Positions 1,054-57,531 of a stretch of 64,000 nucleotides of DNA are shown one piece after another. A program made the translations under genes and the position numbers. The stretch is from the IMG/VR virus record IMGVR_UViG_2778261503_000006, one strand, 5' to 3'. How positions within the stretch are numbered: the stretch's first letter is position 1; each line of letters starts with the position of its first letter. The notes under the pieces were generated by a model. It saw only the letters and a program-made list of their open reading frames with translations. It was not told the DNA's origin and made no database searches. Source of the stretch: a virus. Taxonomy: Duplodnaviria; Heunggongvirae; Uroviricota; Caudoviricetes.

Positions 1054-1068
1054 ACCAACGTTTATCTC
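865..1068. repeat. direct repeat copy 3, adjacent to invertase gene
   Basis: same sequence as copies 1 and 2; approximate left boundary. Confidence 0.8.
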
Positions 1069-1070
1069 TC
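1045..1070. other. candidate invertase crossover site (cix/gix-like)
   Basis: TTCCCCCAAACCAACGTTTATCTCTC, 55 bp upstream of the invertase start. Confidence 0.3.
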
Positions 1071-1124
1071 AAATCCTCCCCACATTATCTCAGTACTTTA
1101 ACCACTCAAAAGGGAGTATTTTTA

Positions 1125-1697
1125 ATGCTGATTGGCTACATACGTGTGTCAACAAATGACCAAAACACAGATTTGCAACGCAATGCATTAATGTGCGCAG
1201 GATGTGAACAGATTTTTGAGGACAAAATGAGCGGAACCAAGTCGGAACGACCAGGCCTGAAACGCGCTTTAAAGTGCCTTAAAAGAGGGGATACATTGGT
1301 GGTCTGGAAGCTGGATCGGTTGGGTAGAAGAATGAAACACCTCATTGCTCTCACAGAAGAGTTACGCGCAAAAGGTGTCAATTTTCGCAGTCTGACGGAT
1401 TCAATCGATACCAGCACTCCGATGGGAAGGTTCTTTTTTCATATGATGGGTGCACTGGCAGAAATGGAGCGTGAACTGATAGTTGAGCGCACGCTGGCAG
1501 GACTGGCTGCTGCGCGAGCACAAGGAAGAGTTGGAGGACGTCGCCCGAAACTGACGAAGGAGCAGCATGAGCAGATCGCAAGATTGCTCCAGAAAGGGTA
1601 TGACAGAAAGCGGCTGGCAATTATCTATGATATTGGACTGTCAACGATCTACCGCTATCACCCTGTTGGGACTGTCATAACGCAACCTGAAATGTAA
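1125..1697 (+). CDS. cin: Cin/Gin/Pin/Hin-family serine DNA invertase
   Basis: 190 aa from ATG 1125 with AAGGGAG RBS; IGYIRVSTNDQ catalytic-Ser block, VVWKLDRLGR, C-terminal HTH; the track's longer ORF from 996 is an upstream extension. Confidence 0.9.
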   Translation: MLIGYIRVSTNDQNTDLQRNALMCAGCEQIFEDKMSGTKSERPGLKRALKCLKRGDTLVVWKLDRLGRRMKHLIALTEELRAKGVNFRSLTDSIDTSTPMGRFFFHMMGALAEMERELIVERTLAGLAAARAQGRVGGRRPKLTKEQHEQIARLLQKGYDRKRLAIIYDIGLSTIYRYHPVGTVITQPEM

Positions 1698-13738: not shown

Positions 13739-14067
13739 CGGAATGTATGATCTGCATCATCGACTGAAGTCATCCATTGCTGAAATTTTTAGTTGATCTT
13801 CCATGTTTTCAGGCTTATATTCATGCCGTCGTAGCAAATTCTGCGACCGGGTTTGACAGCCTGAATGTTAGTGCGGACAACCGCAGATTTCCGATATTGC
13901 GGTATTTTTGTGTCCGTAAACCGCGTTACGCCCGAATTATGGTGGGGCGTGATGGGGAGGCTTCGGCCTGCTGGTTTCACTAACGCCAGTCTGTCAACCC
14001 TGTCACGTCCTGCCACCTGTTTGACAGCGGGTGGCAGGTTGTTAAACCTGTTAGTGAGGCCGTAACT

Positions 14068-27135: not shown

Positions 27136-27210
27136 GATGGTGTAGCTCAGCGGTAGAGCAGTTGGCTGTTAACCAACTGGTCGGTGGTTCGAATCCACCC
27201 ACCATCGCCA
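27136..27210 (+). tRNA. tRNA-Asn (anticodon GUU)
   Basis: manual cloverleaf: acceptor gatggtg/caccatc, D-arm gctc/gagc, anticodon loop ctGTTaa, T-loop ttcgaat, 3' CCA. Confidence 0.85.
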
Positions 27211-27215
27211 ATTTA

Positions 27216-27302
27216 GGGGAGTTAGTCCGTAGGGGTAGCGGGGTAGACTGTAAATCTACTGTCATTGCGACTCGGGTGGTTCGACTCCATCACTCCCCAC
27301 CA
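27216..27302 (+). tRNA. type II tRNA-like gene, anticodon GUA (Tyr) by manual fold; D-arm non-canonical
   Basis: acceptor ggggagt/actcccc, anticodon stem gtaga/tctac with loop ctGTAaa, long variable arm, T-loop ttcgact, 3' CCA. Confidence 0.55.
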
Positions 27303-27306
27303 AATT

Positions 27307-27382
27307 GCCGGTTTAGCTCAGTTGGTAGAGCAGTCGCTTTGTAAGCGAATGGTCAGCGGTTCGATCCCGTTAACCGGCACCA
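27307..27382 (+). tRNA. tRNA-Thr (anticodon UGU)
   Basis: acceptor gccggtt/aaccggc, D-arm gctc/gagc, anticodon loop ttTGTaa, T-loop ttcgatc, 3' CCA. Confidence 0.8.
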
Positions 27383-27836
27383 ACACAACAGGTAAGAGCA
27401 TTTGTAGAGTTCGACTCTCTACCGTGGGCTTTTTCCCGCGATGCGAGCCATAAATGCTCTTACCGTTGTGATGAAGTGCAGCTCTTTGAAGCAACCAGAA
27501 GATAAGCATCTGGCTTCACAACATAAACCGCAGGAACGACCAATAAACGGTAGTCCGTATGGAGAACACCCCGTTGAGGAAGAGGTCTGGCCGGAACCGT
27601 AACCGGCACTACAACGTTGAGAACACTGGCGTAACGGGGTCATATCCCAATCTACGAATAAATGTTGCGTTGCAGCGTGACAACCAGTGTTCTCAACATT
27701 GTGGTGAATGCGCAGGCTGATGCGCGAAAGACATTGCAGCTATTGCGGAAAAGAGCTGTTCGGCGGGGCAATTAAACGCCCGTGAGAGTCTGAAATAACC
27801 GCAAGCCGGAGATCAGCACCGGTCGCCACAATAACG

Positions 27837-27923
27837 GGAGAGTAGGGAGCATGGTGCTCAAGCGGTCTTGAAAACCGTCCCATTGCGCAAGCGATGATGG
27901 TTCGATTCCATTACTCTCCGCCA
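27837..27923 (+). tRNA. type II tRNA-Ser-like (anticodon UGA); D-arm short
   Basis: acceptor ggagagt/actctcc, anticodon arm gcggt-ctTGAaa-accgt (very like E. coli tRNA-Ser), 17-nt variable arm, T-loop ttcgatt, 3' CCA. Confidence 0.55.
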
Positions 27924-28214
27924 GTGCAACATTAAGGGTATTTGGCTAATTAAGCGAATGCCGGAAGCAGAACCGGATCACCAAATGCGTACAGGCGTCA
28001 TCGCCGCCCAGTCAGCCAAATGCTCTTACCATTGCGGTGAATGCGGCTAAGCGCACGCGGAACAGTTAAAACAGTAAAGGTGGTCTTTTTACTGGCGTAA
28101 CGAGAATCCATAAGTGATCCGGCGTTAATTGTTAACTGGTTAACGTCACCGGGAGGCGCCCGGCACCGCAACCTAACAGCAATGGCGTTTTGTCTTAAAA
28201 GGTGGCTGCAAGTG

Positions 28215-28343
28215 ATGGATTTTTGGGCGTTTGCCGATAAAAACCCGGAGTGGACATTATTGTTTCTGCTGGTGGTTGCATACGGGGTAGAGCAAGCGGC
28301 AAAAGCCTTACGCGGTTCTGGCAAAAAGCGTAAGCGTAATTAA
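28215..28343 (+). CDS. candidate 42-aa small membrane protein (below the track's size cut-off)
   Basis: ATG 28215 preceded by AAGGTGG; hydrophobic core TLLFLLVVAYGV and K/R-rich tail; ends 10 nt before a tRNA. Confidence 0.25.
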   Translation: MDFWAFADKNPEWTLLFLLVVAYGVEQAAKALRGSGKKRKRN

Positions 28344-28352
28344 CAGTAATCT

Positions 28353-28428
28353 GGCCCTTTAGCTCAGTGGTTAGAGCGGGCGACTCATAATCGCACGGTC
28401 ACCGGTTCAAGTCCGGTAGGGGCCACCA
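28353..28428 (+). tRNA. tRNA with anticodon CAU (elongator Met or Ile2/lysidine type)
   Basis: acceptor ggccctt/aggggcc with G1-C72, D-arm gctc/gagc, anticodon loop ctCATaa, T-loop ttcaagt, 3' CCA. Confidence 0.8.
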
Positions 28429-32483: not shown

Positions 32484-33521
32484 TTACCAGAGCTTCGCGG
32501 CGTACTGCGTTTGGGGGAATGTGTATCCGTAACGTTCTTCGATTGCTTTGCCGTATTTTTTACGAGCTTCATTCAGTTTTATGCCGGTCAGGTCGTCTCC
32601 AGAGGCCATCATTACGTCTAACAATTCCAGATCCATTTTATCCAGCCTTGCCATTGCTTCACGTGATGTACGTATCTTACGCTCAATGATATGGCGAATA
32701 GCCGGATCGGCATCCTCCAGCATCTTAGCGGATTTCTGCTTAAGGCTTTCATTGCGAATATCGATGTTCCTTAAGATGTACGACTTCGCAACGTAGCTTG
32801 GCTGGTGTTTTTCCAGGTCACGAACACGATATAAGTTAAAATCGCCGAGAAGGCTGCAAGGTACCGATTCGACGCCAGAATAAATTGTAATGCTCCGGCG
32901 CTCACCAACATTATTGACAACGGGGATCGTTGTCTTCGGTAGTCTTGCGAAAACCAATGCGCCATGTGCGCCAACTCTAAAGCGAGAAAGGGCATTGCTG
33001 CCTTCGATGTTTGTTGTCAGCACAACATCTGTATATGCCTCTTTACGCGCCCGGTAGATCTCGCCTTCAGGCTCAGCTTCAAAGAAGCGCTGTTCTTCTT
33101 CAAGAGCACCTACGATTTGAGAAAAAACCCTATTTTTCAGGCTTTTCTTTATGATTTTGTCGTATTTTTTGAGCAATTGTTCACGTGTAAATGTACGTGT
33201 TGTTGTAGCGCTTTGCACAACAACATGCGTGCTTTGATTGGTGTCCTCAATGATGAATGGGATCGGAGAATATACAGACTCAACAATGTTCGACGCTTTG
33301 CCGTCGGCATCGCGGCACATGTCAACGAAGGCTTTCCATTCAGCAAGACATTTTTCAGCTTCTTCTAATATGTTTTGGTCATGCGTTAATGCAACATGGC
33401 GGAATTCCTCGCCAGCATAACTGGTATCATGGAAAACAGAGTTTGCGACCACCAGCTCTTTCCACCGTTCAGCGGTTTGCAGGAACCGTTTGTACTCTTT
33501 CTCGATCGACTTCTTACTCAT
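32484..33521 (-). CDS. hypothetical protein divergent from the recombinase locus (candidate immunity repressor by position only)
   Basis: 345 aa; operator-like motif 14-37 bp upstream of its start; no motif recognised. Confidence 0.5.
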   Translation of the reverse strand: MSKKSIEKEYKRFLQTAERWKELVVANSVFHDTSYAGEEFRHVALTHDQNILEEAEKCLAEWKAFVDMCRDADGKASNIVESVYSPIPFIIEDTNQSTHVVVQSATTTRTFTREQLLKKYDKIIKKSLKNRVFSQIVGALEEEQRFFEAEPEGEIYRARKEAYTDVVLTTNIEGSNALSRFRVGAHGALVFARLPKTTIPVVNNVGERRSITIYSGVESVPCSLLGDFNLYRVRDLEKHQPSYVAKSYILRNIDIRNESLKQKSAKMLEDADPAIRHIIERKIRTSREAMARLDKMDLELLDVMMASGDDLTGIKLNEARKKYGKAIEERYGYTFPQTQYAAKLW

Positions 33522-33534
33522 TATTCCTACTCGA

Positions 33535-33558
33535 TTTAGTTTTCTAACATAAAATTAC
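33535..33558 (-). promoter_or_regulatory. operator-like motif overlapping the promoter region of the 32484..33521 gene
   Basis: tttagttttctaacataaaattac; core TGTTAGAAA on minus strand. Confidence 0.45.
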
Positions 33559-33731
33559 TATGACAAATTTATGTCGAATAACAGAGTGAGTAAAGGATCG
33601 AACTGTGATTTTTTGTCATCAAATTTAGAAAACCAACTGTATAAACCACGCTTCGCAAATTAAAGACCATGAAGGCAACGTGTTACTGGTCAGAATCAAT
33701 CTGTGATGGATTAAAAAAAATCGCCATTTTA

Positions 33732-33763
33732 TAACTTTAAATAATTGGCATTATTTAAAGTTA
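33732..33763. other. rox-like 32-bp recombination site (14-bp inverted arms, 4-bp spacer)
   Basis: taactttaaataat tggc attatttaaagtta is a perfect 14-4-14 palindrome; its reverse complement matches the rox site of the Dre recombinase as I recall it; ~150 bp upstream of the recombinase gene. Confidence 0.8.
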
Positions 33764-33915
33764 GGCTATAATTATGGGTAGATGATCAGTATTGACATCA
33801 CTGAAAATACGCGCCTCGAATCAAAGGCTTGAATCTTGAAAATTAACTTATAGCTACCCTGTCATTTTTATATTTTTCGCGTAGCGTTATCTGTATATAG
33901 AGGTTAAATAGTTTC

Positions 33916-34944
33916 ATGAGTGAATTAATTATCTCTGGCAGCTCCGGTGGTTTTCTGCGCAACATTGGCAAAGAGTACCAGGAGGCCGCAGAAAACTTTA
34001 TGCGGTTCATGAATGACCAGGGGGCTTATGCGCCGAATACTCTGCGCGACCTCCGGTTGGTGTTTCATTCATGGGCGCGCTGGTGTCACGCTCGCCAGCT
34101 TGCCTGGTTTCCGATCTCACCAGAAATGGCCCGCGAGTATTTTCTTCAGCTGCATGATGCCGATCTGGCTTCGACCACCATTGATAAGCACTACGCCATG
34201 CTGAATATGCTGCTTTCGCATTGTGGCCTTCCGCCACTTTCGGATGATAAAAGTGTTTCTCTGGCTATGCGGCGCATCCGGCGCGAAGCGGCAACTGAAA
34301 AAGGCGAACGAACAGGCCAGGCTATACCGCTTCGGTGGGACGATCTGAAACTGCTCGACGTCCTGTTGTCCAGGTCAGAACGGCTGGTGGACCTGCGCAA
34401 CCGGGCTTTTCTCTTTGTTGCATACAATACGCTGATGCGTATGTCGGAAATCTCGCGTATTCGTGTAGGAGATCTGGATCAAACAGGTGACACTGTCACG
34501 CTACATATTTCACACACGAAGACAATAACGACCGCCGCCGGGCTTGATAAGGTGCTTTCCCGTCGCACTACCGCTGTGCTGAATGACTGGCTGGATGTTT
34601 CCGGGCTTCGCGAACATCCTGACGCAGTGCTGTTCCCGCCGATACACCGTAGCAATAAGGCCAGGATCACGACAACGCCCCTTACTGCACCTGCAATGGA
34701 GAAAATATTCAGCGACGCCTGGGTGTTGCTGAATAAAAGAGATGCTACGCCAAACAAAGGAAGATACCGGACGTGGACCGGGCATAGTGCACGCGTCGGG
34801 GCCGCTATTGATATGGCTGAAAAGCAGGTGTCTATGGTGGAGATCATGCAGGAAGGAACCTGGAAGAAACCGGAAACACTTATGCGGTATCTTCGCCGTG
34901 GCGGCGTGTCTGTGGGGGCTAATAGCCGCCTGATGGATTCGTAA
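33916..34944 (+). CDS. dre: Cre-family tyrosine recombinase (Dre-like)
   Basis: 342 aa; SVSLAMRRIRRE, LRNRAFLFVAYNTLMRMSEISRIRVGDL and WTGHSARVGAAIDMAEKQVSMVEIMQEGTW align block-for-block with P1 Cre. Confidence 0.85.
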   Translation: MSELIISGSSGGFLRNIGKEYQEAAENFMRFMNDQGAYAPNTLRDLRLVFHSWARWCHARQLAWFPISPEMAREYFLQLHDADLASTTIDKHYAMLNMLLSHCGLPPLSDDKSVSLAMRRIRREAATEKGERTGQAIPLRWDDLKLLDVLLSRSERLVDLRNRAFLFVAYNTLMRMSEISRIRVGDLDQTGDTVTLHISHTKTITTAAGLDKVLSRRTTAVLNDWLDVSGLREHPDAVLFPPIHRSNKARITTTPLTAPAMEKIFSDAWVLLNKRDATPNKGRYRTWTGHSARVGAAIDMAEKQVSMVEIMQEGTWKKPETLMRYLRRGGVSVGANSRLMDS

Positions 34945-34963
34945 ATTAAATTTCTAACACATC
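34943..34963 (-). promoter_or_regulatory. operator-like motif (aaattaaatttctaacacatc)
   Basis: starts within the recombinase stop codon. Confidence 0.4.
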
Positions 34964-35017
34964 TTTTTAGATTAACGCCTTTGCTGTAAAGTACCCTCGC
35001 CTATTTAGGAGGGTGCT

Positions 35018-35362
35018 TTGCAGAGTCAAATCACGGAATCAAGACGCTTCAAGGTGGATGGTTACACCGTAACCTTCGCCGCTGGTGTTAAGAACAGTCA
35101 TGCTGTCGTTGTGTTCGGCATCATGACCGGGCTTGAGGCCGTCCCTGTGTTTACCCTCGAAAAAAACTGGCGAAATCTGGAGGAAGCAGAAAGCTACGTC
35201 CGGAAAGTAACCATCATTGCCGCCGAAAAACTCCTGGCCCACTATCAGGAAAATTATCGCACTATGGTCGAGAAGATTAATCTCGCTTTCACTCGCCCCA
35301 CTACCGGCTTTATTGCACCGGATACTAATGCCGGTCGATATCCTGCAAGGGGGTGTCGGTGA
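35018..35362 (+). CDS. hypothetical protein downstream of recombinase
   Basis: 114 aa from TTG 35018 with AGGAGGG RBS. Confidence 0.4.
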   Translation: MQSQITESRRFKVDGYTVTFAAGVKNSHAVVVFGIMTGLEAVPVFTLEKNWRNLEEAESYVRKVTIIAAEKLLAHYQENYRTMVEKINLAFTRPTTGFIAPDTNAGRYPARGCR

Positions 35363-41689: not shown

Positions 41690-43193
41690 GGTCCACCTCA
41701 TGCTTTTCAGCCACCAGCGGCAATAAAGCCCTGGCCATCTTATGAACCAATAGTGCATCAATAATGCCAAGCGTATGCCCCGGCTTAATGTTTAATGCCG
41801 CCTCAAGGCGACACCTTTCCAGGCCACTTTTCTCGGCTTGTTTATGATGATCTGGTGTAATAACGTCGCCCAAAACACGGCTAATTCTTTCTCGTAATTG
41901 CTGGGTGCCAGCACACTTGATCGCTGTATCGTGGAGACGGTTAACCAGTTCGCGATAAACATGCGGCTTAATGCGGATACGTTCACCGGTGACGCCCTTT
42001 CCTGGCGCTGGCACCGAACTATCCGGAATATCCGGATAGTTGCCTGCCAGTCTACGCAACACAGCCTTAACGGCCTCAATACGGTCATCATCGCAACTTT
42101 CCGCCGTATCTATGCGGTCGAGCATGATGATGGCGTTATCAATATCAGGATTGCCGGTCCACTCATTACCGCGATTGGATTCGGCAGACTGGTTACCAGA
42201 TGCGGGTTGATTGTCGGCCTTACCCAGCCTGTCGTCGCTGCATGAATGCCCTTCCAGCCAGGCCAATGCTTGTCGCATGAAATACGCAATATGCTTGCCG
42301 TGGTAATCGTCTTCATCGATGTGAAAAGCGATACTGCGGATATATTCAATTGCGTTTTCAATGGCCTCCGGCGTTACCGGTGCTGACATATTTTGATTTT
42401 GGAGTGCCAAGACGCGGCTGGCATCCTCTACGCCTTTAACTGCATCTGCGCAGTAGTTATAGCGATTGCATTCCACTAACTTCTGCTTGAGATTTTCAAT
42501 TGCTTGCGCGACATCAGCCTGTATTGGCGGAACGGCTGTTTGCTCTCGAACGTCATTAGTCGCTATCGGTTCTGCTGCCAACTGACTGGCATATTTGTTA
42601 ATGGTAACGATAAGCTCTTGCTCGGCCTCATCCAGACAATCACCGATACCTCGCCTGTCACCGTCAAAATCATCGAAATCGGCACGAACTCTGGCAAACT
42701 TCAGGATTGCTGACAACACCTCACTAGGAATTACCGGATAGTTGGTTGACGTTTCCGCGATTTCCCGAAAATTATTGGTTGACGAATTCTTGCTTTCCCG
42801 AAAGTTTCCGGACTGAAGCATGGCGGTGCGGCAGGCGTTCCATATTTCGGCAGCAATATCGCGCTCGCTATCGGTTAATTTGTACGTGGAAACATAGCCA
42901 GAGAGCATTTCTACGTTTTCCGGAGTTGCTTCTTCCGGCACTACCGGCGCTGGCGGGGCGATGCGTCCAAGCAACTTATTTACCTCTTTCGCCATCGCGT
43001 CATATTTATCTAAATGGCGATTAGCTTCTAAGCAGACTCGGCGCATCTGATCTGAGTTAACTCGTTTAACTGGATCTGCTTCCAGCGATGCCAGCGCAAT
43101 CCGTGCCAGTTCCATTTGTTCACCACGGGTAAGCCCGTTTTCAAGCGGATTTTTAATGAACAATTCAATACGTTCTTTGGTAATAGTGGTCAT
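41673..43193 (-). CDS. large hypothetical early protein
   Basis: 506 aa; N-terminal MTTITKERIELFIKNPLENGLTRGEQMELARIALASLEA shared with 43469..43879; C-terminal segment resembles that of 50310..50921. Confidence 0.5.
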   Translation of the reverse strand: MTTITKERIELFIKNPLENGLTRGEQMELARIALASLEADPVKRVNSDQMRRVCLEANRHLDKYDAMAKEVNKLLGRIAPPAPVVPEEATPENVEMLSGYVSTYKLTDSERDIAAEIWNACRTAMLQSGNFRESKNSSTNNFREIAETSTNYPVIPSEVLSAILKFARVRADFDDFDGDRRGIGDCLDEAEQELIVTINKYASQLAAEPIATNDVREQTAVPPIQADVAQAIENLKQKLVECNRYNYCADAVKGVEDASRVLALQNQNMSAPVTPEAIENAIEYIRSIAFHIDEDDYHGKHIAYFMRQALAWLEGHSCSDDRLGKADNQPASGNQSAESNRGNEWTGNPDIDNAIIMLDRIDTAESCDDDRIEAVKAVLRRLAGNYPDIPDSSVPAPGKGVTGERIRIKPHVYRELVNRLHDTAIKCAGTQQLRERISRVLGDVITPDHHKQAEKSGLERCRLEAALNIKPGHTLGIIDALLVHKMARALLPLVAEKHEVDHANES

Positions 43194-43203
43194 GTGTTAC
43201 TCC

Positions 43204-43467
43204 TTAACCCGCAGTGCTTTCAACTGATGAGGGGAACAAAATCTTTTCATCAAACCCTGCATTCATATCATGAACAGCAACACACCAATCCATCGACGAA
43301 CGATTATCAAGAGTCTCCATGATTTCATCCATGCGGCGCAGGTCATACAGGTAAATGCTTTTATCGCCAATGGTGTAAAAACCAATTTTTTTCGGTGATG
43401 GACAGCGATCAAGAACGTCCTGTAATTCGTTCAACCATGCCCGTTCTTTTTTTGTTAAAGTTGCCAT
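43204..43467 (-). CDS. hypothetical small protein
   Basis: 87 aa from ATG 43467 (MATLTKKERAWLNELQ...) with AGGAGA RBS. Confidence 0.4.
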   Translation of the reverse strand: MATLTKKERAWLNELQDVLDRCPSPKKIGFYTIGDKSIYLYDLRRMDEIMETLDNRSSMDWCVAVHDMNAGFDEKILFPSSVESTAG

Positions 43468-43468
43468 A

Positions 43469-43879
43469 TCACTCTCCTTTCCCATGAAGCATAGCGGCGC
43501 GGCAGGCGTTCCAGCCTGTAGCGTATGCAGCCGCTTTGCTGCTGCCTTCAACTGGCGCATCCTGCCAATACATTTCATCCGGCACTACCGGCGCTGGCAA
43601 GGCAGCGTGATAGTAGAGTGGCATAGTTTTGTACAGTGGTTCGCCAGGACTTCCGTCAACCTGATTCCATTCTTCAACCCAGGCATCAACAACCGCTTTG
43701 CTGGTTGATACATGTTCTTCTGAATCTACATTTTGTCCTGATATACAGAACATAACTGCCTCTGCTTCCAGCGATGCCAGAGCAATTCGTGCCAGTTCCA
43801 TTTGTTCGCCACGAGTAAGTCCGTTATCAAGCGGATTTTTAATGAATAATTTGATACGTTCTTTGGTTATAGCGTTCAT
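43469..43879 (-). CDS. hypothetical protein sharing the N-terminal module of 41673..43193
   Basis: 136 aa from ATG 43879 (MNAITKERIKLFIKNPLDNGLTRGEQMELARIALASLEA). Confidence 0.45.
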   Translation of the reverse strand: MNAITKERIKLFIKNPLDNGLTRGEQMELARIALASLEAEAVMFCISGQNVDSEEHVSTSKAVVDAWVEEWNQVDGSPGEPLYKTMPLYYHAALPAPVVPDEMYWQDAPVEGSSKAAAYATGWNACRAAMLHGKGE

Positions 43880-43880
43880 C

Positions 43881-44636
43881 TCACTCTCCTTTGATGCGAA
43901 TGCCAGTAGCGCGGATTGCATCGATGACTTCAGAAACTTTGTATGCCATTACCGTTTGGTAATCATCGTGAAAATCTGTTCGATGAAGCATGCTGCTACG
44001 TTCCGGGAGCGATATTTCCCGAGCATCCAGTTCCTTAACGCGCTCCTCCAGTTCGTAGACCCTGCATTGTTCTCTATCATCAATCAGATATAACCCAAGA
44101 CATTCGCTTTCTACCCAACCGCCAAAATCATGATCGTAACGCTCACATGAAAACTCACCGTCACCGTCCTTTGTTGGAATGGTGTAACTATCTAATGGGC
44201 CACCATATGTCGGCACATTTCCCAATGTTGGATGCTCAATCCACATGAAAAATGCACGTCCGGTTATTGGGCAAATATCTGGCCGCCATTGGTTACGAAC
44301 AGCCTTGGTTTCGGATAATTCTTCAGCGTGTTGTTTTACTTCCTCAAGCTCAACTCTCAGCTTCCCAACCGTAAGAGCAATATCCTCGTTCTTCTGGTCG
44401 CGGCGTTTGATGTATTGCTGGTTTCTTTCCAGTTCATCCAGTAATGCCAAAGCAACCTTTGGATTAAAGGCAGCAATAAATTCAGCGTTGTTTTTCAGAA
44501 CGTGTTGCGCAATGGCCTGACCACTTAGTCGGACCTTATAACCACGTGCGCCACGGTGTGGTTTATATGAGTCCCAGTCTCCCCACGTTGCTTTCTCTGC
44601 CGCCTCACGCAGTGCCTGGTAATTAATTTTGCTCAC
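43881..44636 (-). CDS. Ead/Ea22-like family protein
   Basis: 251 aa; N-terminal YQALREAAEKATWGDW...AAFNPKVALALLDELE pattern. Confidence 0.5.
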   Translation of the reverse strand: MSKINYQALREAAEKATWGDWDSYKPHRGARGYKVRLSGQAIAQHVLKNNAEFIAAFNPKVALALLDELERNQQYIKRRDQKNEDIALTVGKLRVELEEVKQHAEELSETKAVRNQWRPDICPITGRAFFMWIEHPTLGNVPTYGGPLDSYTIPTKDGDGEFSCERYDHDFGGWVESECLGLYLIDDREQCRVYELEERVKELDAREISLPERSSMLHRTDFHDDYQTVMAYKVSEVIDAIRATGIRIKGE

Positions 44637-45072
44637 TGACTGCCTCCTTCTTAATCAGTTTACACAGGTGCTCCACAGCCACAGAGAGTGCATCCACCGC
44701 TCGTTTATCCAGACGCGGGGCCAGAGCAAGCAGTTCATTTATTGCAATCTGAATACCATGCTCCGCCGCCAGCGCCGCGCGATTGCTCTCCAGCTCTGCA
44801 ATGCGCTGTTTTGCGGTATCAAGTTCAATCGATAATTTTTCCAACTGCTCTTTATGCTTCTTGTATTCCTGATATGCGTGCCAGGACTGACCTTTGCGCA
44901 CACTATCAGTAATATCAGTAATCTGTTCTGGTGTTAGAGTGGTCAGTGGCTGTGCTGGGAAAATCAGCACTTTCCCGGAATCCCAATCAAAACCAGCGTG
45001 AATTGACTGAACCTCAACTGAGGGTGTTGAACCAATGCTGCCAGGCGAATGAACAACGATCGTTACATCCAT
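44623..45072 (-). CDS. hypothetical coiled-coil protein (start uncertain)
   Basis: ORF in track 44623..45168; internal ATG 45072 (MDVTIVVHSP...) preferred. Confidence 0.4.
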   Translation of the reverse strand: MDVTIVVHSPGSIGSTPSVEVQSIHAGFDWDSGKVLIFPAQPLTTLTPEQITDITDSVRKGQSWHAYQEYKKHKEQLEKLSIELDTAKQRIAELESNRAALAAEHGIQIAINELLALAPRLDKRAVDALSVAVEHLCKLIKKEAVSEQN

Positions 45073-45164
45073 ATCGCGACGATGGCTGTGGTTGTTGGAC
45101 AAAATACGATTCAACAAAATACGATTCACCAACTCAGAAAATTTGGAGAATTTCATGCGGAGCC

Positions 45165-45575
45165 TCAATATGCAAAATAGACCGTTGCCACGCCGTTATA
45201 GTGATCAAACGATACGGCGTTTACTTCATAACTGGCCGGGAGCTTCGAGCCAAGAACGTATCCGGGCCACGTTTTCCATGGAATTTCTCTATTCTCACTA
45301 CCCCCATATACCGTACATCCAAGTGAACCTACAGCTTCATTAGAACGCGTGCCGCACGTTATGAATCCCAGATTTTGCTTACTGCTCTTAATGGTGATTG
45401 AGTGAACGCTGGCTGATGCATTAGCAGCACGCTGTGCCTGTTGGTTTGCGATATTCGCAGAGTTCGCAGCAGCTACAGCAGCCGTAGTCGCGGCGGTAGA
45501 GGCTACAATAGCTGCTGAAGCATGCACTTGTTGGATATTCACCAACAATGCCGCGATAAAAATCATCTTCTTCAC
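45165..45575 (-). CDS. secreted Ala-rich protein with signal peptide
   Basis: 136 aa; MKKMIFIAALLVNIQQVHA signal-like N-terminus. Confidence 0.45.
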   Translation of the reverse strand: MKKMIFIAALLVNIQQVHASAAIVASTAATTAAVAAANSANIANQQAQRAANASASVHSITIKSSKQNLGFITCGTRSNEAVGSLGCTVYGGSENREIPWKTWPGYVLGSKLPASYEVNAVSFDHYNGVATVYFAY

Positions 45576-46294
45576 TTGTCAGCTCCTTTGCGAATCTGTT
45601 CCGCCCATTCTTCAAGGGATTTCTCCGCATATTCACCAGACAGGCCATCAATCGGATGCGCTTCATTAGCCAACTCTTCTTTCGCTGACAAAATCATGCG
45701 TGTAACGTCGAAAACTTCACGCAAAGACTTATTGATAAATCCGTGATTGAACGCAGCAGCAAGACGGCTGGCGGTATAGTTAACTCCCTCGTTGCGTGCT
45801 TCCGCACGAATTTCAGCCAGAAAAGCATCGGTGGCTGGCATATTTCCTGTTGCCTTCATGGCCTCCAAAATAACCAGAACGCCATCTCGCCCAACCTCCT
45901 CAGCGATAACCTCGGTGTTGTCGCCAACAACATCGCAGAATGCCTGAACTGCCTTACGAGCCAGTTCATTCTCCGCCGCCAGCGCCGCGAGATTAGTCTC
46001 AAGCTCTGCAATTCGACACATAGCATCAATATTTGTGTCCTCCAGGCGCTTAATTTCACCAAGAAGCTCCAGTGCAACCTTTGGGTTGAACGCGGCAACA
46101 TAACGAGCGTTGTTCTCTGCATTTTTCTGTCCATCAAAGCCGGTCCATTTGATAACGTCTTCACATCGTTCATCACCGGGCGTGTGCACCGCATAAGTAC
46201 CAGTATCCGTCGAAATAAATGCGACCCATTCGTCTGGTGTTGCCTTTTCTGCCGCCTCACGCAGTACCTGATAGTCAATTGTCATTCTCGCCAT
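45572..46294 (-). CDS. Ead/Ea22-like family protein
   Basis: 240 aa; YQVLREAAEKATPDEW...AAFNPKVALELLGEIKRLE; C-terminal region paralogous to 49503..50006. Confidence 0.5.
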   Translation of the reverse strand: MARMTIDYQVLREAAEKATPDEWVAFISTDTGTYAVHTPGDERCEDVIKWTGFDGQKNAENNARYVAAFNPKVALELLGEIKRLEDTNIDAMCRIAELETNLAALAAENELARKAVQAFCDVVGDNTEVIAEEVGRDGVLVILEAMKATGNMPATDAFLAEIRAEARNEGVNYTASRLAAAFNHGFINKSLREVFDVTRMILSAKEELANEAHPIDGLSGEYAEKSLEEWAEQIRKGADK

Positions 46295-46926
46295 CCTTCA
46301 CAGTTGTAATCACGACAGCCTTCAAAATCATATGGGCTGTACTGCCAGGTTATTTTTCCGCAATGCGGACAATTCCAACGCACCTTCCCGCTTCGCGACT
46401 TCTTTCTTCTGTTCTGCTCTTTCAACCAGTCAGGCATGACCAAACCTGCGCCCTGAACCATTGTTCTGCGGTTAAAGTTATTGATATTGAACGTCCGGCG
46501 CTTTGCTGCATCAGCAATGGAAAATGGCAACCAAACTATTCCTGGTTCGTTTTTGTTGGCGAAGCTAAAGATGGTCGCTTTACTGAAGTCATCTGTTGGC
46601 AATCCACCGTGTTGAAGCCAGTAAACATCGTTGCCGTTCCAGCTACCTTTTTTGTAGGCCACATACTCAGTGCAATCTGACTCAATCAGGCTTTCTGTAG
46701 GGATGTACTGGCAATCAACGTGCCACACAGCCATTGCATCCACACTATCGGCACAAACAGGCTGATCGATATCTCGCCCACAATTCCAGGCTTTTTGGGC
46801 TTCTTCCAGCGTGTAAATATGAGCGCGATCGATATCAGAACTGTAACCATTGCCGTTATGGCAATGGAATGAGGCGTTATTACCCACAGTTTCACGCAAG
46901 CACATCATGTAAAAGCGGTTATTCAC
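46282..46926 (-). CDS. hypothetical protein with C-terminal zinc-ribbon-like Cys cluster
   Basis: 214 aa; WNCPHCGK...CRDYNCEG. Confidence 0.45.
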   Translation of the reverse strand: MNNRFYMMCLRETVGNNASFHCHNGNGYSSDIDRAHIYTLEEAQKAWNCGRDIDQPVCADSVDAMAVWHVDCQYIPTESLIESDCTEYVAYKKGSWNGNDVYWLQHGGLPTDDFSKATIFSFANKNEPGIVWLPFSIADAAKRRTFNINNFNRRTMVQGAGLVMPDWLKEQNRRKKSRSGKVRWNCPHCGKITWQYSPYDFEGCRDYNCEGWRE

Positions 46927-52271: not shown

Positions 52272-52376
52272 AATACTGACTGTTGCGCCCTGGCATTATC
52301 GTGGGGTATATTTCTACGGCACCTTAGAAAAACGGGTGCCGGGATTGAGACCCCGGATAATGCAAAAGGCGACACA

Positions 52377-52398
52377 GACGCCGAAAGCGTCTTTTTTT
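52377..52398 (+). terminator. rho-independent terminator
   Basis: gacgccgaaagcgtc followed by ttttttt. Confidence 0.7.
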
Positions 52399-52447
52399 GT
52401 GTCATGCCATCGCACAGCCATACGTAGCGTATAGCTCCAAGATCAAT

Positions 52448-52523
52448 GGTAGTGCTGGCTGGGCTGCCGAAAGGCAGGCCGGTTCCCTTTTGCGCCGGTA
52501 GTCTCAACCCAGCCAGTGCTACC
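52448..52523 (+). ncRNA. candidate structured antisense-type RNA upstream of the icd-like gene (c4-like by analogy); unverified
   Basis: 16-bp outer stem ggtagtgctggctggg/cccagccagtgctacc enclosing two hairpins. Confidence 0.3.
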
Positions 52524-52583
52524 GCCATTGAGATTGAGACCTCACGCGGTAGCTCCTTAAATTAGCAAAAGGAGGCTGCCAAT

Positions 52584-53799: not shown

Positions 53800-54087
53800 A
53801 TGAAGAAAATAGATTTCACTTACTCTGCTGCCACAATCCAGCGACGTTTCAGTCTCATAAGGGAAGTGGAACTATCAAAAAACTGCTATCAAATTCTACT
53901 GGATGAAGAGTTTTCACTGATGGTTATAGCAGAAAAATTGGCTATGCCGAATGACCGACACAAGGTCATAGCCAGCCTCGATCTGGTGACAAACAGATAC
54001 TGGGAGACAGAGGAACTACATGAAGCGGGAGTAATTCGTGGCCTGATGGAGAATTCCGTTCCCCGTCGTTATAGTGTGATGAGCTAA
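53800..54087 (+). CDS. hypothetical protein
   Basis: 95-aa ORF. Confidence 0.4.
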   Translation: MKKIDFTYSAATIQRRFSLIREVELSKNCYQILLDEEFSLMVIAEKLAMPNDRHKVIASLDLVTNRYWETEELHEAGVIRGLMENSVPRRYSVMS

Positions 54088-54413
54088 AACTCACCTGCAC
54101 ACCGTCAGGCCCAACGCAAATAAATGAAACATCCCGCTCTTGGTGTTTCAGTGAAATAGCTCATTTTTAGCTTGGAAGCAACTTGATTATGAGCTAAGCC
54201 TGACATACACTTCAGCGAGAAAATGATCAAGTTAAAGACACAAAAGCTCTGTTTTAACAGAGCTTTTGTGTCTTTAAAACATAGATATCATGCCATATAT
54301 AGTGCCAAAATTAGTTTTAGACACTATATATATTATAAAAGGTAAAAACCGCTTCTACTTTTAACATCCACAGAAAAAAGAAAGCGGTTATAGATAAGGG
54401 AAAAGGAGGGGTT

Positions 54414-54719
54414 ATGCTCTATGCGGTTCCTCAGCAAGCTTCTGATTCTTTGAAGTTAATCAAGACTGTACTTCAGCTTATAGCATCTCAACAAGAAGTG
54501 TCACAGCAGTTAAAGTTACGGGTTTATGAGGTGATCAGAGAAGCCTCAAACTTAAGTGTAGATAAAGGTGATCAATTACAGATTCCTTCTCACAGAGAGT
54601 CCATCTCGCTCGCGGTAGAGATACGCCACACTAAGGCGCTCGCCCAGGTGCTAACCAAAGTAACTAGCGAAGATATGTTAGAACCCGTAATGGCCCGGAA
54701 TGTATTAGAGTACATTTAA
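54414..54719 (+). CDS. small helical protein, first gene of AT-rich three-gene operon
   Basis: 101 aa; ATG 54414 with AAAAGGAGGGG RBS. Confidence 0.5.
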   Translation: MLYAVPQQASDSLKLIKTVLQLIASQQEVSQQLKLRVYEVIREASNLSVDKGDQLQIPSHRESISLAVEIRHTKALAQVLTKVTSEDMLEPVMARNVLEYI

Positions 54720-55792
54720 TGCTTGCATTTACACAACTTACATTAGTTCGAAATAAGCTAAGGGAGATATCAGAATCTCCCTATTTTTCTAAAGACATGC
54801 ATGAATATCTTGCTGTTCTACAAGAAGCGGTAGATAAGCTCTATGAAAACCATGTGAATGTTGCTGATAAAATAATTGCGGATTGTACTTTTTTTATCAC
54901 CGATGCAGTTAATTTTTTCACTGGCAGTACTACAAAGAAAATTCCCTACGAGATTGTTTATTGCTTAAATGATGCCTGTAAAAAATGGATAAGTGAAAAA
55001 ACACTTATAACCACAGCCCTATCTCCAGATATGCATGGGTTTTATTTTAAGTCTGTAAACAAGAATTTGTATTCTTTATTTGATGAAGTTTTAAATGTCA
55101 AATTCGAGGTCGAATTAATTCAGATTTCATTACCTGAAATGTACAGAAGACGACCATTATGCTCTATACCTTTATATCACGAATTGGGACATTTCGTTGA
55201 TATTAGCAAAGGTATTTCTGAGCTTGCCTGTCTTAACTATCGTTCCAAGGACAAAGGCACACTTCCAGGACCAGAATGGAGTAATCTACCTGATGTTATT
55301 TGGATAAATCATTGCAGAGAATATTTTGCAGATCTATTTAGTGCCCAATTTATTGGAAAAAGTGGGGTAGATTTCTTATACAAATTAGCTGGCTCTCATC
55401 CTGCAAGCTATACTCACCCATCCACAGAAGATAGAGTTAAAATTGTAAGCGACTTTTTGAACAAAGTGGAAAATCCAGTTGTTGGCATGTTCAATGCTGT
55501 GATATCAGCCTTACATAAGGGTGGGCAGATTATTTCTCCTTGTTTGACATTGCCGACACCTTTGCTTGATGTGAAATCAGCTTTTGATAATGTGCGTCCT
55601 TTTGTTATTCGCGACCACAATGAAATGCATGCTTTTATTAACAGCAGCTGGCAGTACTTATGCTCTGAATGGGAAAAACCTACGGGTATATGGTCTGGGT
55701 TGTCAAAAGAAGCCATAGAAAAAACTATAAATGATTTGGTTGAAAAATCGATTCGAAACGTAATGATTCTTGAAAAATGGAGTGCACAATGA
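54719..55792 (+). CDS. HExxH zinc-metallopeptidase-like protein
   Basis: 357 aa; HELGH at nt 55178-55192; AT-rich; translationally coupled to both neighbours. Confidence 0.6.
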   Translation: MLAFTQLTLVRNKLREISESPYFSKDMHEYLAVLQEAVDKLYENHVNVADKIIADCTFFITDAVNFFTGSTTKKIPYEIVYCLNDACKKWISEKTLITTALSPDMHGFYFKSVNKNLYSLFDEVLNVKFEVELIQISLPEMYRRRPLCSIPLYHELGHFVDISKGISELACLNYRSKDKGTLPGPEWSNLPDVIWINHCREYFADLFSAQFIGKSGVDFLYKLAGSHPASYTHPSTEDRVKIVSDFLNKVENPVVGMFNAVISALHKGGQIISPCLTLPTPLLDVKSAFDNVRPFVIRDHNEMHAFINSSWQYLCSEWEKPTGIWSGLSKEAIEKTINDLVEKSIRNVMILEKWSAQ

Positions 55793-56406
55793 ATCTCCTA
55801 AGCAAAGCTGAATTGCTGCAATATTATGAATCAGAAGAACCTGAGTCGTTGTTCATTGAACCTCTTCTAAATAAAAACCAAATTGGAAACTTCACCATAG
55901 ACCTTAGACTTGGTTACGATTTTTTAGTGTCTATTATGACAAGGAAGCCGTCAATAGAGTTAATTCCCTCAAAAAACAATGATACTCATCAACCAATCAG
56001 AACATTTTTCCAGGAAACAAGGAGAGATCTTGGGGATAGGTTCATTGTTTACCCGAATCAAGTGGTACTGGCAACAACATTAGAATATGTTTGTTTGCCA
56101 CCAGATTGCTACGCTGATGTATTGTCCAGAAGCAGCTATACAAGGCTTGGTCTTTCATTAAATACCATGATACAACCAGGGTACAGAGGCTGTATATCTT
56201 TAGAGTTATTTAATCATGGGAATAGCCCTGTAGAACTTATTGTTGGATCTCGCATATGTCAAATTCGTATATTCAAGAATGAAACTGTCGGTGAATACAT
56301 AAGTCATGAGTCTCACAGGAAATATTTCGGAAATGTGAGGCCAACCGTCTCAGCAGCAGAAAGTGATAATGAATTAAATATGCTGGAAAAGATCCGACAA
56401 AAATGA
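55777..56406 (+). CDS. dCTP deaminase / dUTPase-fold enzyme (Dcd-like); alternative start ATG 55789
   Basis: IDLRLG, SSYTRLGL, PGYRGCISLELFN, GSRICQIRIF blocks align with E. coli Dcd. Confidence 0.7.
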   Translation: MECTMNLLSKAELLQYYESEEPESLFIEPLLNKNQIGNFTIDLRLGYDFLVSIMTRKPSIELIPSKNNDTHQPIRTFFQETRRDLGDRFIVYPNQVVLATTLEYVCLPPDCYADVLSRSSYTRLGLSLNTMIQPGYRGCISLELFNHGNSPVELIVGSRICQIRIFKNETVGEYISHESHRKYFGNVRPTVSAAESDNELNMLEKIRQK

Positions 56407-56494
56407 AAACTTTAATGCTTTATATTATAAAAACATACAGCGACAACGCAGCCACCAAGATGTGTTGTCGCCATGTTCAAAGTGCTAACACAGT

Positions 56495-56887
56495 TTAAAA
56501 ATCACCTGCGCGCTGTTTTTCAAGCACAGATTTAACATTTGGCACTTTCCCTTTAAAAGAATGGAAAGTGCCACATTTTTCTGTTTTAACTTCGCGCAGA
56601 GCTTCGCCATCGGCGTTCTGCCATTGATGGGATAATGTCATATCACCGCGAGAAGGAACATCCAGCGAGTACAGCGTGTAAGTTCCCCCCATCTCCGCAT
56701 ACTCCTGGAACACATAGCTCATTACGTCAGATTCAGTTTTTCGGTGTACGTTATCAACCTTATTCCCATTCAGAAATATGGCATCTGGATAGATTTTTAT
56801 ATCAAACCGACCGCACTTAACTTGTAAATTTCCGGCGCTCGCGATCAAAGGGAAAGACGCCAGTAAAGCAATTGTCAATCTTTTCAA
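56495..56887 (-). CDS. secreted small protein with signal peptide
   Basis: 130 aa; MKRLTIALLASFPLIASA signal peptide. Confidence 0.5.
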   Translation of the reverse strand: MKRLTIALLASFPLIASAGNLQVKCGRFDIKIYPDAIFLNGNKVDNVHRKTESDVMSYVFQEYAEMGGTYTLYSLDVPSRGDMTLSHQWQNADGEALREVKTEKCGTFHSFKGKVPNVKSVLEKQRAGDF

Positions 56888-56907
56888 TTCTGCCTCCGCT
56901 GCGTAAC

Positions 56908-57531
56908 TTATTGCCCGTATTTTTTACACCATTGCTCTGCCATTTGTTTGGCTAAAGGCCCGGCTACTGCACTGTATTCTGCTGTTTTACTTTGCACACA
57001 TGAAGCAGATGGTTTTTTATTTCGCTGCTCGGTTAGTTTGCGCTCATAAGCCATCATGCTATCGAACCCGGCAATATCACTTTGGCGAAGCATTCCCTTT
57101 TTAACCAAAAATTGCTGCCCCTCGGGCACCAACGCAAGCATAAAAAGTGGTTGCAATAACTCACCTAATCCTTGCTGGCGATACACTTCGAATTGCTGCC
57201 ATCCCTGACTTAATCTGGAAAGAGTATCTTTGGTTGAATAACCTGTTTTTGTTATAGCTTTGTCCGTCAGATATGCTGTATATGCAAAAACGCAAAAGTC
57301 AGTTTTACCAATAAACTGAGTTCCAACAGGCCGTAATGGAATGCCCTCCCTCTTGCAAAAGTCCATAATGGCCGCTTGTGAATGATCCCCACCAGCATTA
57401 TTCATAACCTGCTGCCCTGCCCTGAATTGTGCAGGTAACGCAGTTGCATTGGCAGTATTAGCAGATACGCATCCCAACATAGCCGCGAGCGCGGCCCCTA
57501 AAACCCTTAACTTCACTACACCATCCTTCAT
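56908..57531 (-). CDS. secreted/periplasmic protein with signal peptide
   Basis: 207 aa; LRVLGAALAAMLGCVSANTANA N-terminus. Confidence 0.5.
   Translation of the reverse strand: MKDGVVKLRVLGAALAAMLGCVSANTANATALPAQFRAGQQVMNNAGGDHSQAAIMDFCKREGIPLRPVGTQFIGKTDFCVFAYTAYLTDKAITKTGYSTKDTLSRLSQGWQQFEVYRQQGLGELLQPLFMLALVPEGQQFLVKKGMLRQSDIAGFDSMMAYERKLTEQRNKKPSASCVQSKTAEYSAVAGPLAKQMAEQWCKKYGQ

What the first reader, a model, noticed from the sequence alone, without database searches (positions are those of the whole stretch)
33732..34944. Dre/rox-type recombination module: perfect 32-bp 14-4-14 site upstream of a Cre-family recombinase
Seen: taactttaaataat-tggc-attatttaaagtta (33732-33763) is a perfect inverted repeat with a 4-bp spacer; 152 bp downstream starts a 342-aa ORF whose catalytic-domain blocks align with P1 Cre. 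Established (from memory): the reverse complement of this site equals the rox target of Dre, the Cre homologue of the P1-related phage D6, which would place the element in the D6 lineage rather than P1 itself. An operator-like motif (33535-33558) and a repressor-candidate gene sit divergently next to the site.
Basis: partly seen in the sequence, partly recalled or inferred. Interest (0 to 1): 0.6.

Follow-up and report, generated by a model that had tools for sequence, protein, structure and literature searches.

The report
Dre recombinase and its rox site

Summary
The observation and the interpretation both hold. Window 33732-33763 is a perfect 14-4-14 inverted repeat. It is unique in the window and base-for-base identical to the annotated rox site of phage D6 (AY753669.1). 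Its reverse complement is the published roxP sequence. The ORF 152 bp downstream (33916-34944, 342 aa) is 100% identical in protein to D6 Dre (30 synonymous and 0 non-synonymous codon changes) and 41% identical to P1 Cre. All catalytic residues are present. The divergent gene (32484-33521) is 100% identical to the D6 C1 repressor.

The window is colinear with the D6 genome and 99.9% identical over 25 kb to an E. coli plasmid. Canonical rox occurs once each in 110 PLSDB plasmids. loxP and the P1 operator consensus are absent.

Three smaller points go beyond the finding:
- A near-consensus sigma-70 promoter has its -35 inside the rox spacer and a conserved -10 just after rox.
- A dispersed D6-type operator motif (TTTCTAAYAYW) occurs 12 times against 0.25 expected, mostly upstream of counterparts of P1 C1-controlled genes.
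- Natural rox variants exist elsewhere (spacers TAGT, TAGC and GGGG; a one-base arm variant).

Verdict: already known, correctly identified, low interest.

The parts
32484..33521 (-). c1, the D6-type prophage repressor (345 aa), transcribed divergently from dre
   Evidence: ORF. 100% aa identical to D6 C1 AAV84948, with 4 synonymous codon changes. It is only a remote homologue of P1 C1: 21% identity, E = 2e-8; NCBIfam phage_rep_C1 25 bits against a cut-off of 500; no Pfam family.
33536..33551 (+).
   Evidence: One copy of a motif found 12 times against 0.25 expected. 0.95 mean conservation over 33 distinct intergenic sequences. The P1 operator consensus is absent from the window.
33621..33636 (-). 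Second, inverted and weaker operator-like copy TTGGTTTTCTAAATTT
   Evidence: (inverted repeat I4). Conservation 0.78.
33732..33763 (.). rox, the 32-bp Dre target: arms 33732-33745 and 33750-33763, spacer TGGC at 33746-33749
   Evidence: Identical to the annotated D6 rox and to published roxP as its reverse complement. Unique in the window. Arms 0.98-1.00 conserved, against 0.65 for the left flank. Present once each in 110 PLSDB plasmids.
33745..33772 (+). Sigma-70-like promoter TTGGCA-16 nt-TATAAT pointing at dre. The -35 (33745-33750) spans the rox spacer; the -10 (33767-33772) starts 4 bp after rox
   Evidence: 11 of 12 consensus positions. The -10 hexamer is 0.99 conserved across lineages whose flanks differ, including a locus with 70%-identical Dre. 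Function is inferred, not shown.
33850..33915 (+). Conserved leader directly upstream of dre (…CTACCCTGTCATTTTT…TTTTTCGCGTAGCG…TATAGAGG…ATG), including the ribosome-binding site
   Evidence: 0.93 conservation. TTTCGCGTAGCG is also found upstream of P1 cra and of a 47%-identical Serratia homologue. No RNA-structure signal (z = 0.54) and no Rfam match.
33916..34944 (+). dre, the Cre-family tyrosine recombinase (342 aa)
   Evidence: 100% aa identical to D6 Dre, with 30 synonymous and 0 non-synonymous codon changes. E = 5e-69 to Cre structures. Catalytic residues R175, K202, H290, R293, W316 and Y325 present.
34946..34961 (+). Third operator-like copy TTAAATTTCTAACACA, immediately after the dre stop codon and upstream of the orf117 homologue (35018-35362)
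   Evidence: In P1 the annotated C1 operator Oref lies similarly downstream of cre and c8.

Best explanation
The region is the natural Dre/rox site-specific recombination module of a D6-like plasmid-prophage of E. coli (the P1-g2 group).

Mechanism. Dre is a Cre-type tyrosine recombinase. One monomer binds each 14-bp arm of rox. Two rox sites bearing four monomers synapse. Tyr325 cleaves in or next to the 4-bp asymmetric spacer, and strands are exchanged through a Holliday-junction intermediate. No accessory protein is needed, and the spacer's asymmetry sets the direction.

Role. Each plasmid has a single rox. The natural substrates are therefore the two rox copies of a plasmid dimer (resolved to monomers so that the low-copy prophage partitions faithfully) or of a terminally redundant infecting genome (cyclised). 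These are the two roles established for Cre/lox in P1.

Shown here: the site, the protein and the locus organisation are identical to the experimentally characterised D6 system.

Inferred: the chemistry (from Cre structures and the published Dre work); the biological role (by analogy with P1); and that dre is transcribed from a promoter overlapping rox, so that Dre bound at rox could limit its own synthesis.
For: - rox is identical to the annotated D6 site and to published roxP.
- Dre is 100% identical in amino acids to D6 Dre, with 30 synonymous and 0 non-synonymous codon changes, which means strong purifying selection.
- The catalytic residues listed for Dre in PMC4777119 are all present.
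- The protein is homologous to Cre over its full length.
- The gene order pacA-pacB-c1-rox-dre-orf-orf-dut is the same as in AY753669 and MF356679.
- Canonical rox occurs exactly once per record in 110 plasmids, mostly non-mobilizable and, among those listed, about 90 kb. This is what a multimer-resolution site should look like.
- The arms are invariant while the flanks diverge.
- PMC7969092 states that P1 Cre resolves head-to-tail multimers and that Cre is among the persistent gene families of the P1 community, which comprises subgroups g1 and g2.
- Promoter: an 11 of 12 consensus match with a conserved -10.
Against: - Nothing was tested on this DNA. Recombination activity is inferred from identity with the published system.
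- The c1-dre intergenic region differs from D6 at 20 of 394 positions, none of them in rox, so expression could differ.
- As far as I could find, the dimer-resolution and cyclisation roles have been demonstrated for P1 Cre/lox, not for D6 Dre/rox.
- The rox-overlapping promoter is only a consensus match. Over the whole 1.7-kb region the scan found no more promoter-like sites than in shuffles (2 against 2.5).
- The spacer variants TAGT and GGGG would weaken the -35.
- The promoter is absent in homologues that are 47-56% identical.
Confidence: 0.95

Rival explanations
1. It is P1 Cre/loxP itself, or another named Cre-type system (Vika/vox, VCre/VloxP, Panto/pox, Nigri/nox) with a different target.
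For: The protein is clearly Cre-family, and rox shares its outer TAACTT bases with loxP (sequence comparison).
Against: loxP is absent. Cre identity is only 41%. Relatives in Pantoea, Rahnella and Serratia are 41-47% identical and carry different sites. D6 Dre and rox match at 100%.
Confidence: 0.01
2. The recombinase is an integrase that inserts the element into a chromosomal attachment site, and the palindrome is its attP core.
For: Pfam and PHROGs label the family 'integrase'. 3 of the 129 matching places in E. coli genomes are on chromosomes (not examined).
Against: 126 of the 129 places are on plasmids. Canonical rox occurs in 110 PLSDB plasmid records, mostly non-mobilizable and, among those listed, about 90 kb. 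The site is a simple symmetric 14-4-14 repeat with no arm-type repeats nearby. The window carries the D6 plasmid-prophage backbone. From knowledge of the original paper, which I could not read here, Dre needs no accessory factors.
Confidence: 0.03
3. The palindrome also acts as a transcriptional control element. It carries the -35 of the dre promoter, so Dre binding makes it an autoregulatory operator in addition to a crossover site. This extends the main explanation rather than excluding it.
For: TTGGCA-16-TATAAT matches 11 of 12 consensus positions, with the -35 across the spacer. The -10 is 0.99 conserved across lineages whose flanking bases differ, and the rox-to-ATG distance is fixed at 151-153 bp. 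P1 also has an annotated promoter (P4cre) firing through lox towards cre, but it does not overlap lox.
Against: The evidence is a consensus match only. The TAGT and GGGG spacer variants degrade the -35. There are no transcript data. The promoter is not present in the 47-56% homologues.
Confidence: 0.35
4. The module is an inactive relic carried along with the prophage.
For: None found.
Against: The ORF is intact. Divergence from D6 is 30 synonymous against 0 non-synonymous codon changes. All catalytic residues are present. The site is a perfect repeat, conserved in 110 plasmids.
Confidence: 0.01

Closest known systems
Dre/rox of Escherichia phage D6 (Sauer & McDermott 2004; GenBank AY753669.1, MF356679.1)
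   Same: The 32-bp site is identical and the 342-aa recombinase is identical in protein. The same divergent c1 gene is present (100% aa), and the same downstream genes and pacAB neighbours.
   Different: Nucleotide level only: 30 synonymous changes in dre, 4 in c1 and 20 substitutions in the 394-bp intergenic region, none in rox. The host element is a mosaic relative of D6, with about 14.5 kb of the window having no D6 counterpart. It is closest to the E. coli MLI121 plasmid NZ_CP117014.1, at 99.9% over 25 kb.
Cre/loxP of phage P1
   Same: The fold and catalytic residues are the same, with 41% identity over 322 aa. The position in the genome is the same, between c1 and the ref-side genes and next to pacAB. 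The presumed role is the same (multimer resolution, cyclisation). The leader motif TTTCGCGTAGCG is shared.
   Different: loxP is 13-8-13 (34 bp) and rox is 14-4-14 (32 bp); the two systems are heterospecific (PMC4777119). Between c1 and cre, P1 has coi, imcA, imcB and cra, plus four annotated cre promoters, Dam sites and a LexA site. The D6 type has a bare 394-bp intergenic region and a single strong promoter-like site, which overlaps rox.
Other Cre-type systems with rox-like sites (Panto/pox and relatives in Pantoea, Rahnella and Serratia plasmids)
   Same: The recombinases are 41-47% identical. A Serratia plasmid homologue has the upstream site TAACTTTATATAAT-GGGA-GTTATATAAAGTTA, 5 mismatches from rox. 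PMC10250229 reports that Dre cross-recombines pox and some other sites.
   Different: The site sequences, the hosts and the genomic context differ. Some of these homologues lie on large plasmids and on contigs of megabase size, rather than on P1/D6-type prophages.
XerC/XerD with cer or dif (host-encoded multimer resolution)
   Same: The enzyme superfamily is the same, and so is the biological logic of resolving dimers at a single site per replicon.
   Different: NCBIfam XerC and XerD models score 21-28 bits against cut-offs of about 330. Xer needs two recombinases plus accessory factors or FtsK (established knowledge); Dre works alone.

Membership tests
Dre/rox (phage D6 Cre-type recombination system) | A 32-bp target with 14-bp inverted repeats and a 4-bp asymmetric spacer, sequence TAACTTTAAATAATGCCAATTATTTAAAGTTA | tested here: met
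   Window 33732-33763 is the exact reverse complement of the roxP printed in PMC4777119, and is identical to the misc_recomb feature of AY753669.1.
Dre/rox (phage D6 Cre-type recombination system) | The recombinase is Dre (342 aa, AAV84949) | tested here: met
   0 amino-acid differences over 342 residues.
Dre/rox (phage D6 Cre-type recombination system) | Active-site residues R175, H290, R293, W316 and Y325, as listed in PMC4777119 | tested here: met
   All are present at those positions, plus K202.
Dre/rox (phage D6 Cre-type recombination system) | Locus organisation pacA-pacB-c1 / rox / dre-orf2-orf3-dut on a D6-type plasmid-prophage | tested here: met
   The gene order matches AY753669 and MF356679. 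The window is colinear with D6.
Dre/rox (phage D6 Cre-type recombination system) | Catalyses excision and integration at rox but not at lox, without accessory proteins | not testable with these tools
   Inferred from the identical protein and site. It needs a recombination assay.
Cre/loxP (phage P1) | The 34-bp loxP site (13-8-13) | tested here: not met
   loxP is absent from both strands of the window.
Cre/loxP (phage P1) | The recombinase is Cre | tested here: not met
   41% identity to P1 Cre: a homologue, not Cre.
Tyrosine recombinase superfamily (Pfam PF00589 Phage_integrase) | Catalytic-domain match above the curated cut-off | tested here: met
   62.6 bits against a cut-off of 27.1 over residues 157-327. 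The N-terminal SAM-like domain scores 21.6 bits, just below its 22.3 cut-off.
P1-type C1 immunity (C1 repressor and 17-bp operator ATTGCTCTAATAAATTT) | C1 equivalog protein and the P1 operator consensus | tested here: not met
   NCBIfam phage_rep_C1 scores 25 bits against a cut-off of 500. Identity to P1 C1 is 21%. The P1 operator has 0 matches at up to 3 mismatches. A different motif, TTTCTAAYAYW, takes its place.
XerC/XerD | Equivalog-level match | tested here: not met
   21-28 bits against cut-offs of 330-335.

The most novel reading that the evidence does not exclude
In D6-type plasmid-prophages the crossover site doubles as the control region of its own recombinase. The dre promoter has its -35 in the rox spacer and its -10 four bases after rox, so Dre occupancy would throttle dre transcription.

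In addition, the naturally occurring spacer alleles would define lineages that cannot recombine with each other through Dre. These alleles are TGGC in 110 PLSDB plasmids, TAGT in 33 (mostly Salmonella) plasmids, and TAGC and GGGG in single viral contigs. This would be a natural counterpart of the engineered heterospecific rox sites.

Neither point could be checked against the two key D6 papers, which are not in the held library.
Probability: 0.3. Interest if true: 0.3.

Novelty: already known. Interest (0 to 1): 0.1.

Why it matters
The main result matters little. Dre/rox has been characterised since 2004 and is a standard orthogonal partner of Cre/loxP in mouse, zebrafish and bacterial genetics. 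D6-like plasmid-prophages carrying it are common in sequenced E. coli and Salmonella.

The side observations could be of modest practical use to people who engineer Dre/rox orthogonality or annotate P1-g2 phage-plasmids, where PGAP currently calls c1 'hypothetical protein'. These are the natural rox spacer and arm alleles, the promoter embedded in rox, and the D6-type operator motif that marks the C1 regulon.

Tried and rejected
- **Key papers not held.** I tried to read Sauer & McDermott 2004 (doi and PMC534624), Lobocka 2004 (PMC523184) and Gilcrease & Casjens 2018 (PMC5800970). None is held. I therefore cannot say whether the promoter in rox or the D6 operator motif has been described already. 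A library search for phage D6 plus operator found nothing relevant.
- **Genome-contig scan with Dre.** It returned only 41-47% relatives, because the collection holds one genome per species and the reference E. coli and Salmonella genomes lack the plasmid. It was useless for a rox census, so I used IMG/VR and PLSDB instead.
- **A structured RNA or known RNA family in the dre leader.** No Rfam match and no folding signal (z = 0.54).
- **A P1-type pac site.** There is no cluster of TGATCA/G hexamers in pacA; the densest cluster anywhere is 3 in 200 bp, and it lies elsewhere. The distance from pac to rox is therefore not established.
- **A Dam-methylation site controlling dre, as in P1.** The only GATC between rox and dre (33784) is not conserved in D6 itself. 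Dropped.
- **An artificially recoded window.** I first suspected this because every difference from D6 in dre and c1 is synonymous. I rejected it because natural plasmids match at 99.5-99.9% and form a continuum of identities.
- **PADLOC scan of the accessory island and of Dre and C1.** No hits.

Full report
**Observation.** Reading the window directly shows TAACTTTAAATAAT-TGGC-ATTATTTAAAGTTA at 33732-33763. The repeat finder reports 14-nt arms that are 100% complementary, 4 nt apart. The 32-mer is unique in the window even with three mismatches allowed, and none of 100 dinucleotide-preserving shuffles contains it. A script of my own found only one longer perfect inverted repeat in the 64 kb (54232-54277). 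It found no perfect repeat with arms over 12 nt in 30 first-order Markov simulations. The ORF 33916-34944 (+) encodes 342 aa and starts 152 bp after the site. A 345-aa ORF runs divergently at 32484-33521.

**Identity of the site and the enzyme.** A megablast search of 33300-35100 against the phage collection returns only Escherichia phage D6 records, at 96.9% identity for the one covering the whole query. The annotated features under the match are 'dre: tyrosine recombinase', 'c1: phage repressor protein' and 'region of crossover (rox) site for Dre recombinase'.
- The window 32-mer is identical to AY753669.1 positions 4909-4940, in the same orientation relative to dre.
- Its reverse complement is the wild-type roxP oligonucleotide printed in PMC4777119.
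- The translated ORF has no amino-acid difference from D6 Dre. The 30 nucleotide differences are all synonymous.
- The divergent ORF is likewise 100% identical in protein to D6 C1, with 4 synonymous changes.
- Against P1, the recombinase is 41% identical to Cre, and it matches Cre crystal-structure chains at E = 5e-69.
- The residues that PMC4777119 lists as the Dre active site (R175, H290, R293, W316, Y325), plus K202, are present.
- loxP is not in the window.

**The element.** A local blastn search of the window against the complete D6 genome (MF356679, fetched) aligns 49.4 of the 64 kb colinearly and in reverse orientation, from about D6 position 31.6 kb through the rox origin to about 65.5 kb. 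The main blocks are 92-99.5% identical and are interrupted by replaced segments. The module is in 144 PLSDB plasmids, 113 of them holding at least 80% of the 1.8 kb, and in 124 of 5,426 complete E. coli genomes, where 126 of 129 places are on plasmids. Over 25 kb the best match is the plasmid NZ_CP117014.1 of E. coli MLI121, at 99.9%. The window is therefore a natural D6-like plasmid-prophage, the P1-g2 group of PMC7969092 and PMC10879196. At first I suspected artificial recoding because the divergence from D6 is only synonymous. The continuum of natural relatives removes that concern.

**How it most likely works.** Because the protein and the site equal the characterised pair, the mechanism is the published one for Cre-type recombinases. 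Two Dre monomers bind per rox and four form a synapse of two sites. Tyr325 makes the 3'-phosphotyrosyl link, and a Holliday junction is formed and resolved. The asymmetric spacer sets the direction. These steps are inferred from the Cre structures and the Dre literature; they were not tested here.

Canonical rox occurs exactly once per record in 110 plasmids. A single site per replicon is what a multimer-resolution or cyclisation system requires. PMC7969092 gives that role for P1 Cre and lists Cre among the persistent genes of the P1 community, which includes both subgroups. For D6-type elements, this role is an analogy.

**Regulatory anatomy.**
- *Promoter.* The consensus scan finds one strong sigma-70-like site on the dre strand, TTGGCA (33745-33750), 16 nt, TATAAT (33767-33772), matching 11 of 12 positions. 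The -35 is made of the last base of the left arm, the TGGC spacer and the first base of the right arm.
- *Conservation footprint.* In 33 distinct c1-dre intergenic sequences from IMG/VR, PLSDB and D6, the fraction identical to the window is 0.98 and 1.00 for the rox arms, 0.99 for the -10 hexamer and 0.93 for the last 66 nt before the ATG. It is only 0.65 for the 95 nt left of rox.
- *Comparison with P1.* P1 has four annotated cre promoters, none overlapping lox, plus cra, coi, imcA and imcB, all of which the D6 type lacks. Autoregulation by Dre at rox is a reasonable inference, but it is unproven.
TTTCTAAYAYW occurs 12 times in the window against 0.25 expected. Mapped onto D6, 11 of the 12 copies lie between genes. 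They sit upstream of repL, icd/ant, lpa, ref/orf88, pmgS, pdcB, c1 and the gene after dre. From my knowledge of the P1 genome paper, several of these (repL, icd/ant, lpa, ref, c1) are counterparts of P1 genes under C1 control.
- *Immunity type.* The P1 operator consensus is absent, and D6-type C1 is only 21% identical to P1 C1. This points to a D6-specific immunity with the same architecture as in P1.

**Natural variation of rox** (outside the window).
- In IMG/VR, 21 Dre loci have canonical rox. Ten have a single A-to-G change in the arm distal to dre; for eight of these Dre is 99-100% identical, and for two it is about 89-90%.
- One locus has spacer GGGG, and one, with Dre at 70% identity, has spacer TAGC.
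- In PLSDB, 33 plasmids, mostly Salmonella, carry spacer TAGT. The three such loci examined encode a Dre about 90% identical.
- Homologues 47-56% identical have TAACTTTATATAAT-NNNN-GTTATATAAAGTTA sites.
- The window itself carries the canonical allele.

**Comparison and verdict.** Every defining feature of Dre/rox that sequence can test is met. The features of Cre/loxP, of P1-type C1 immunity and of XerC/D are not. The system is already known in this very genomic context (GenBank AY753669 and MF356679), and relatives are abundant in public data. Interest is 0.1. The residual novelty lies in the promoter within rox, the spacer alleles and the operator motif. I could not check these against the two D6 papers, which are not held.

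Noticed in passing
window 12510, 13707, 23609, 24652, 25901, 26057, 29870, 33541, 34951, 48262, 51114, 51774: The dispersed asymmetric motif TTTCTAAYAYW (longer form TTAnnTTTCTAACAYA) occurs 12 times against 0.25 expected. Eleven of the 12 copies are intergenic, upstream of the D6 counterparts of repL, icd/ant, lpa, ref, pmgS, pdcB and c1. Several are paired with an inverted TTAGAA half about 14 nt upstream. It is a candidate operator of the D6-type C1 repressor and is not annotated in the D6 records.
   Followed up: partly
loci L080, L081 (PLSDB NZ_CP060133, NZ_CP059289); L090/L140; L097/L126; L110, L114, L116 and others: Natural rox alleles exist. Spacer TAGT occurs in 33 PLSDB plasmids, and the three examined carry Dre at about 90% identity. 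Spacer TAGC goes with Dre at 70%, and spacer GGGG with Dre at 99%. A one-base arm variant, TAACTTTAGATAAT, occurs in 10 IMG/VR contigs, eight of them with Dre at 99-100% and two at about 89-90%. Whether these are heterospecific with canonical rox is unknown.
   Followed up: partly
window 33850-33915; L083 (P1) 163-206: A leader block upstream of dre is conserved in all Dre lineages. Its core, TTTCGCGTAGCG, also lies upstream of P1 cra and of a 47%-identical Serratia homologue. It shows no RNA-structure or Rfam signal, and its function is unexplained.
   Followed up: partly
window 54232-54277: A 46-bp perfect palindrome (22-2-22), TTAAAGACACAAAAGCTCTGTT-TT-AACAGAGCTTTTGTGTCTTTAA, is the longest perfect inverted repeat in the window. 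It lies at the edge of a segment absent from D6.
   Followed up: no
window 54026-57473: An accessory island replaces the D6 simB/orf80 region. It holds ORFs of 101 aa and 357 aa (the latter matches PHROG 24479, of unknown function), then a dCTP deaminase (TIGR02274, 113 bits; Pfam DCD), plus two reverse ORFs. PADLOC gives no hit. It may be a nucleotide-depletion defence or counter-defence cargo.
   Followed up: partly
window 13815-14020 and 52319-52529: There are two C4 antisense RNA loci (Rfam RF01695, 68.8 and 76 bits). One has the a1/b1 target element and the other an isrK-like RNA. Each sits next to an icd/antirepressor pair, so the element has two immI-type modules, as D6 does.
   Followed up: no
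window 27136-28428: There are five tRNA genes (Asn, Tyr, Thr, Ser-UGA, Met), against three annotated in D6. This block is only about 82% identical to D6.
   Followed up: no
window 996-1697: A Cin-type serine invertase (Resolvase plus HTH_7 domains) is only about 69% identical in DNA to D6 cin. The invertible tail-fibre segment would lie beyond the window start.
   Followed up: no
window 42522-46922: A run of small reverse-strand ORFs absent from D6 includes two Ead/Ea22-like proteins (43881-44636 and 45572-46294). This is a typical mosaic early-region swap.
   Followed up: no
E. coli genome search: Three of the 129 matching places for the c1-rox-dre module lie on E. coli chromosomes rather than plasmids. 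I did not examine whether these are integrated D6-like elements, or how they integrated.
   Followed up: no
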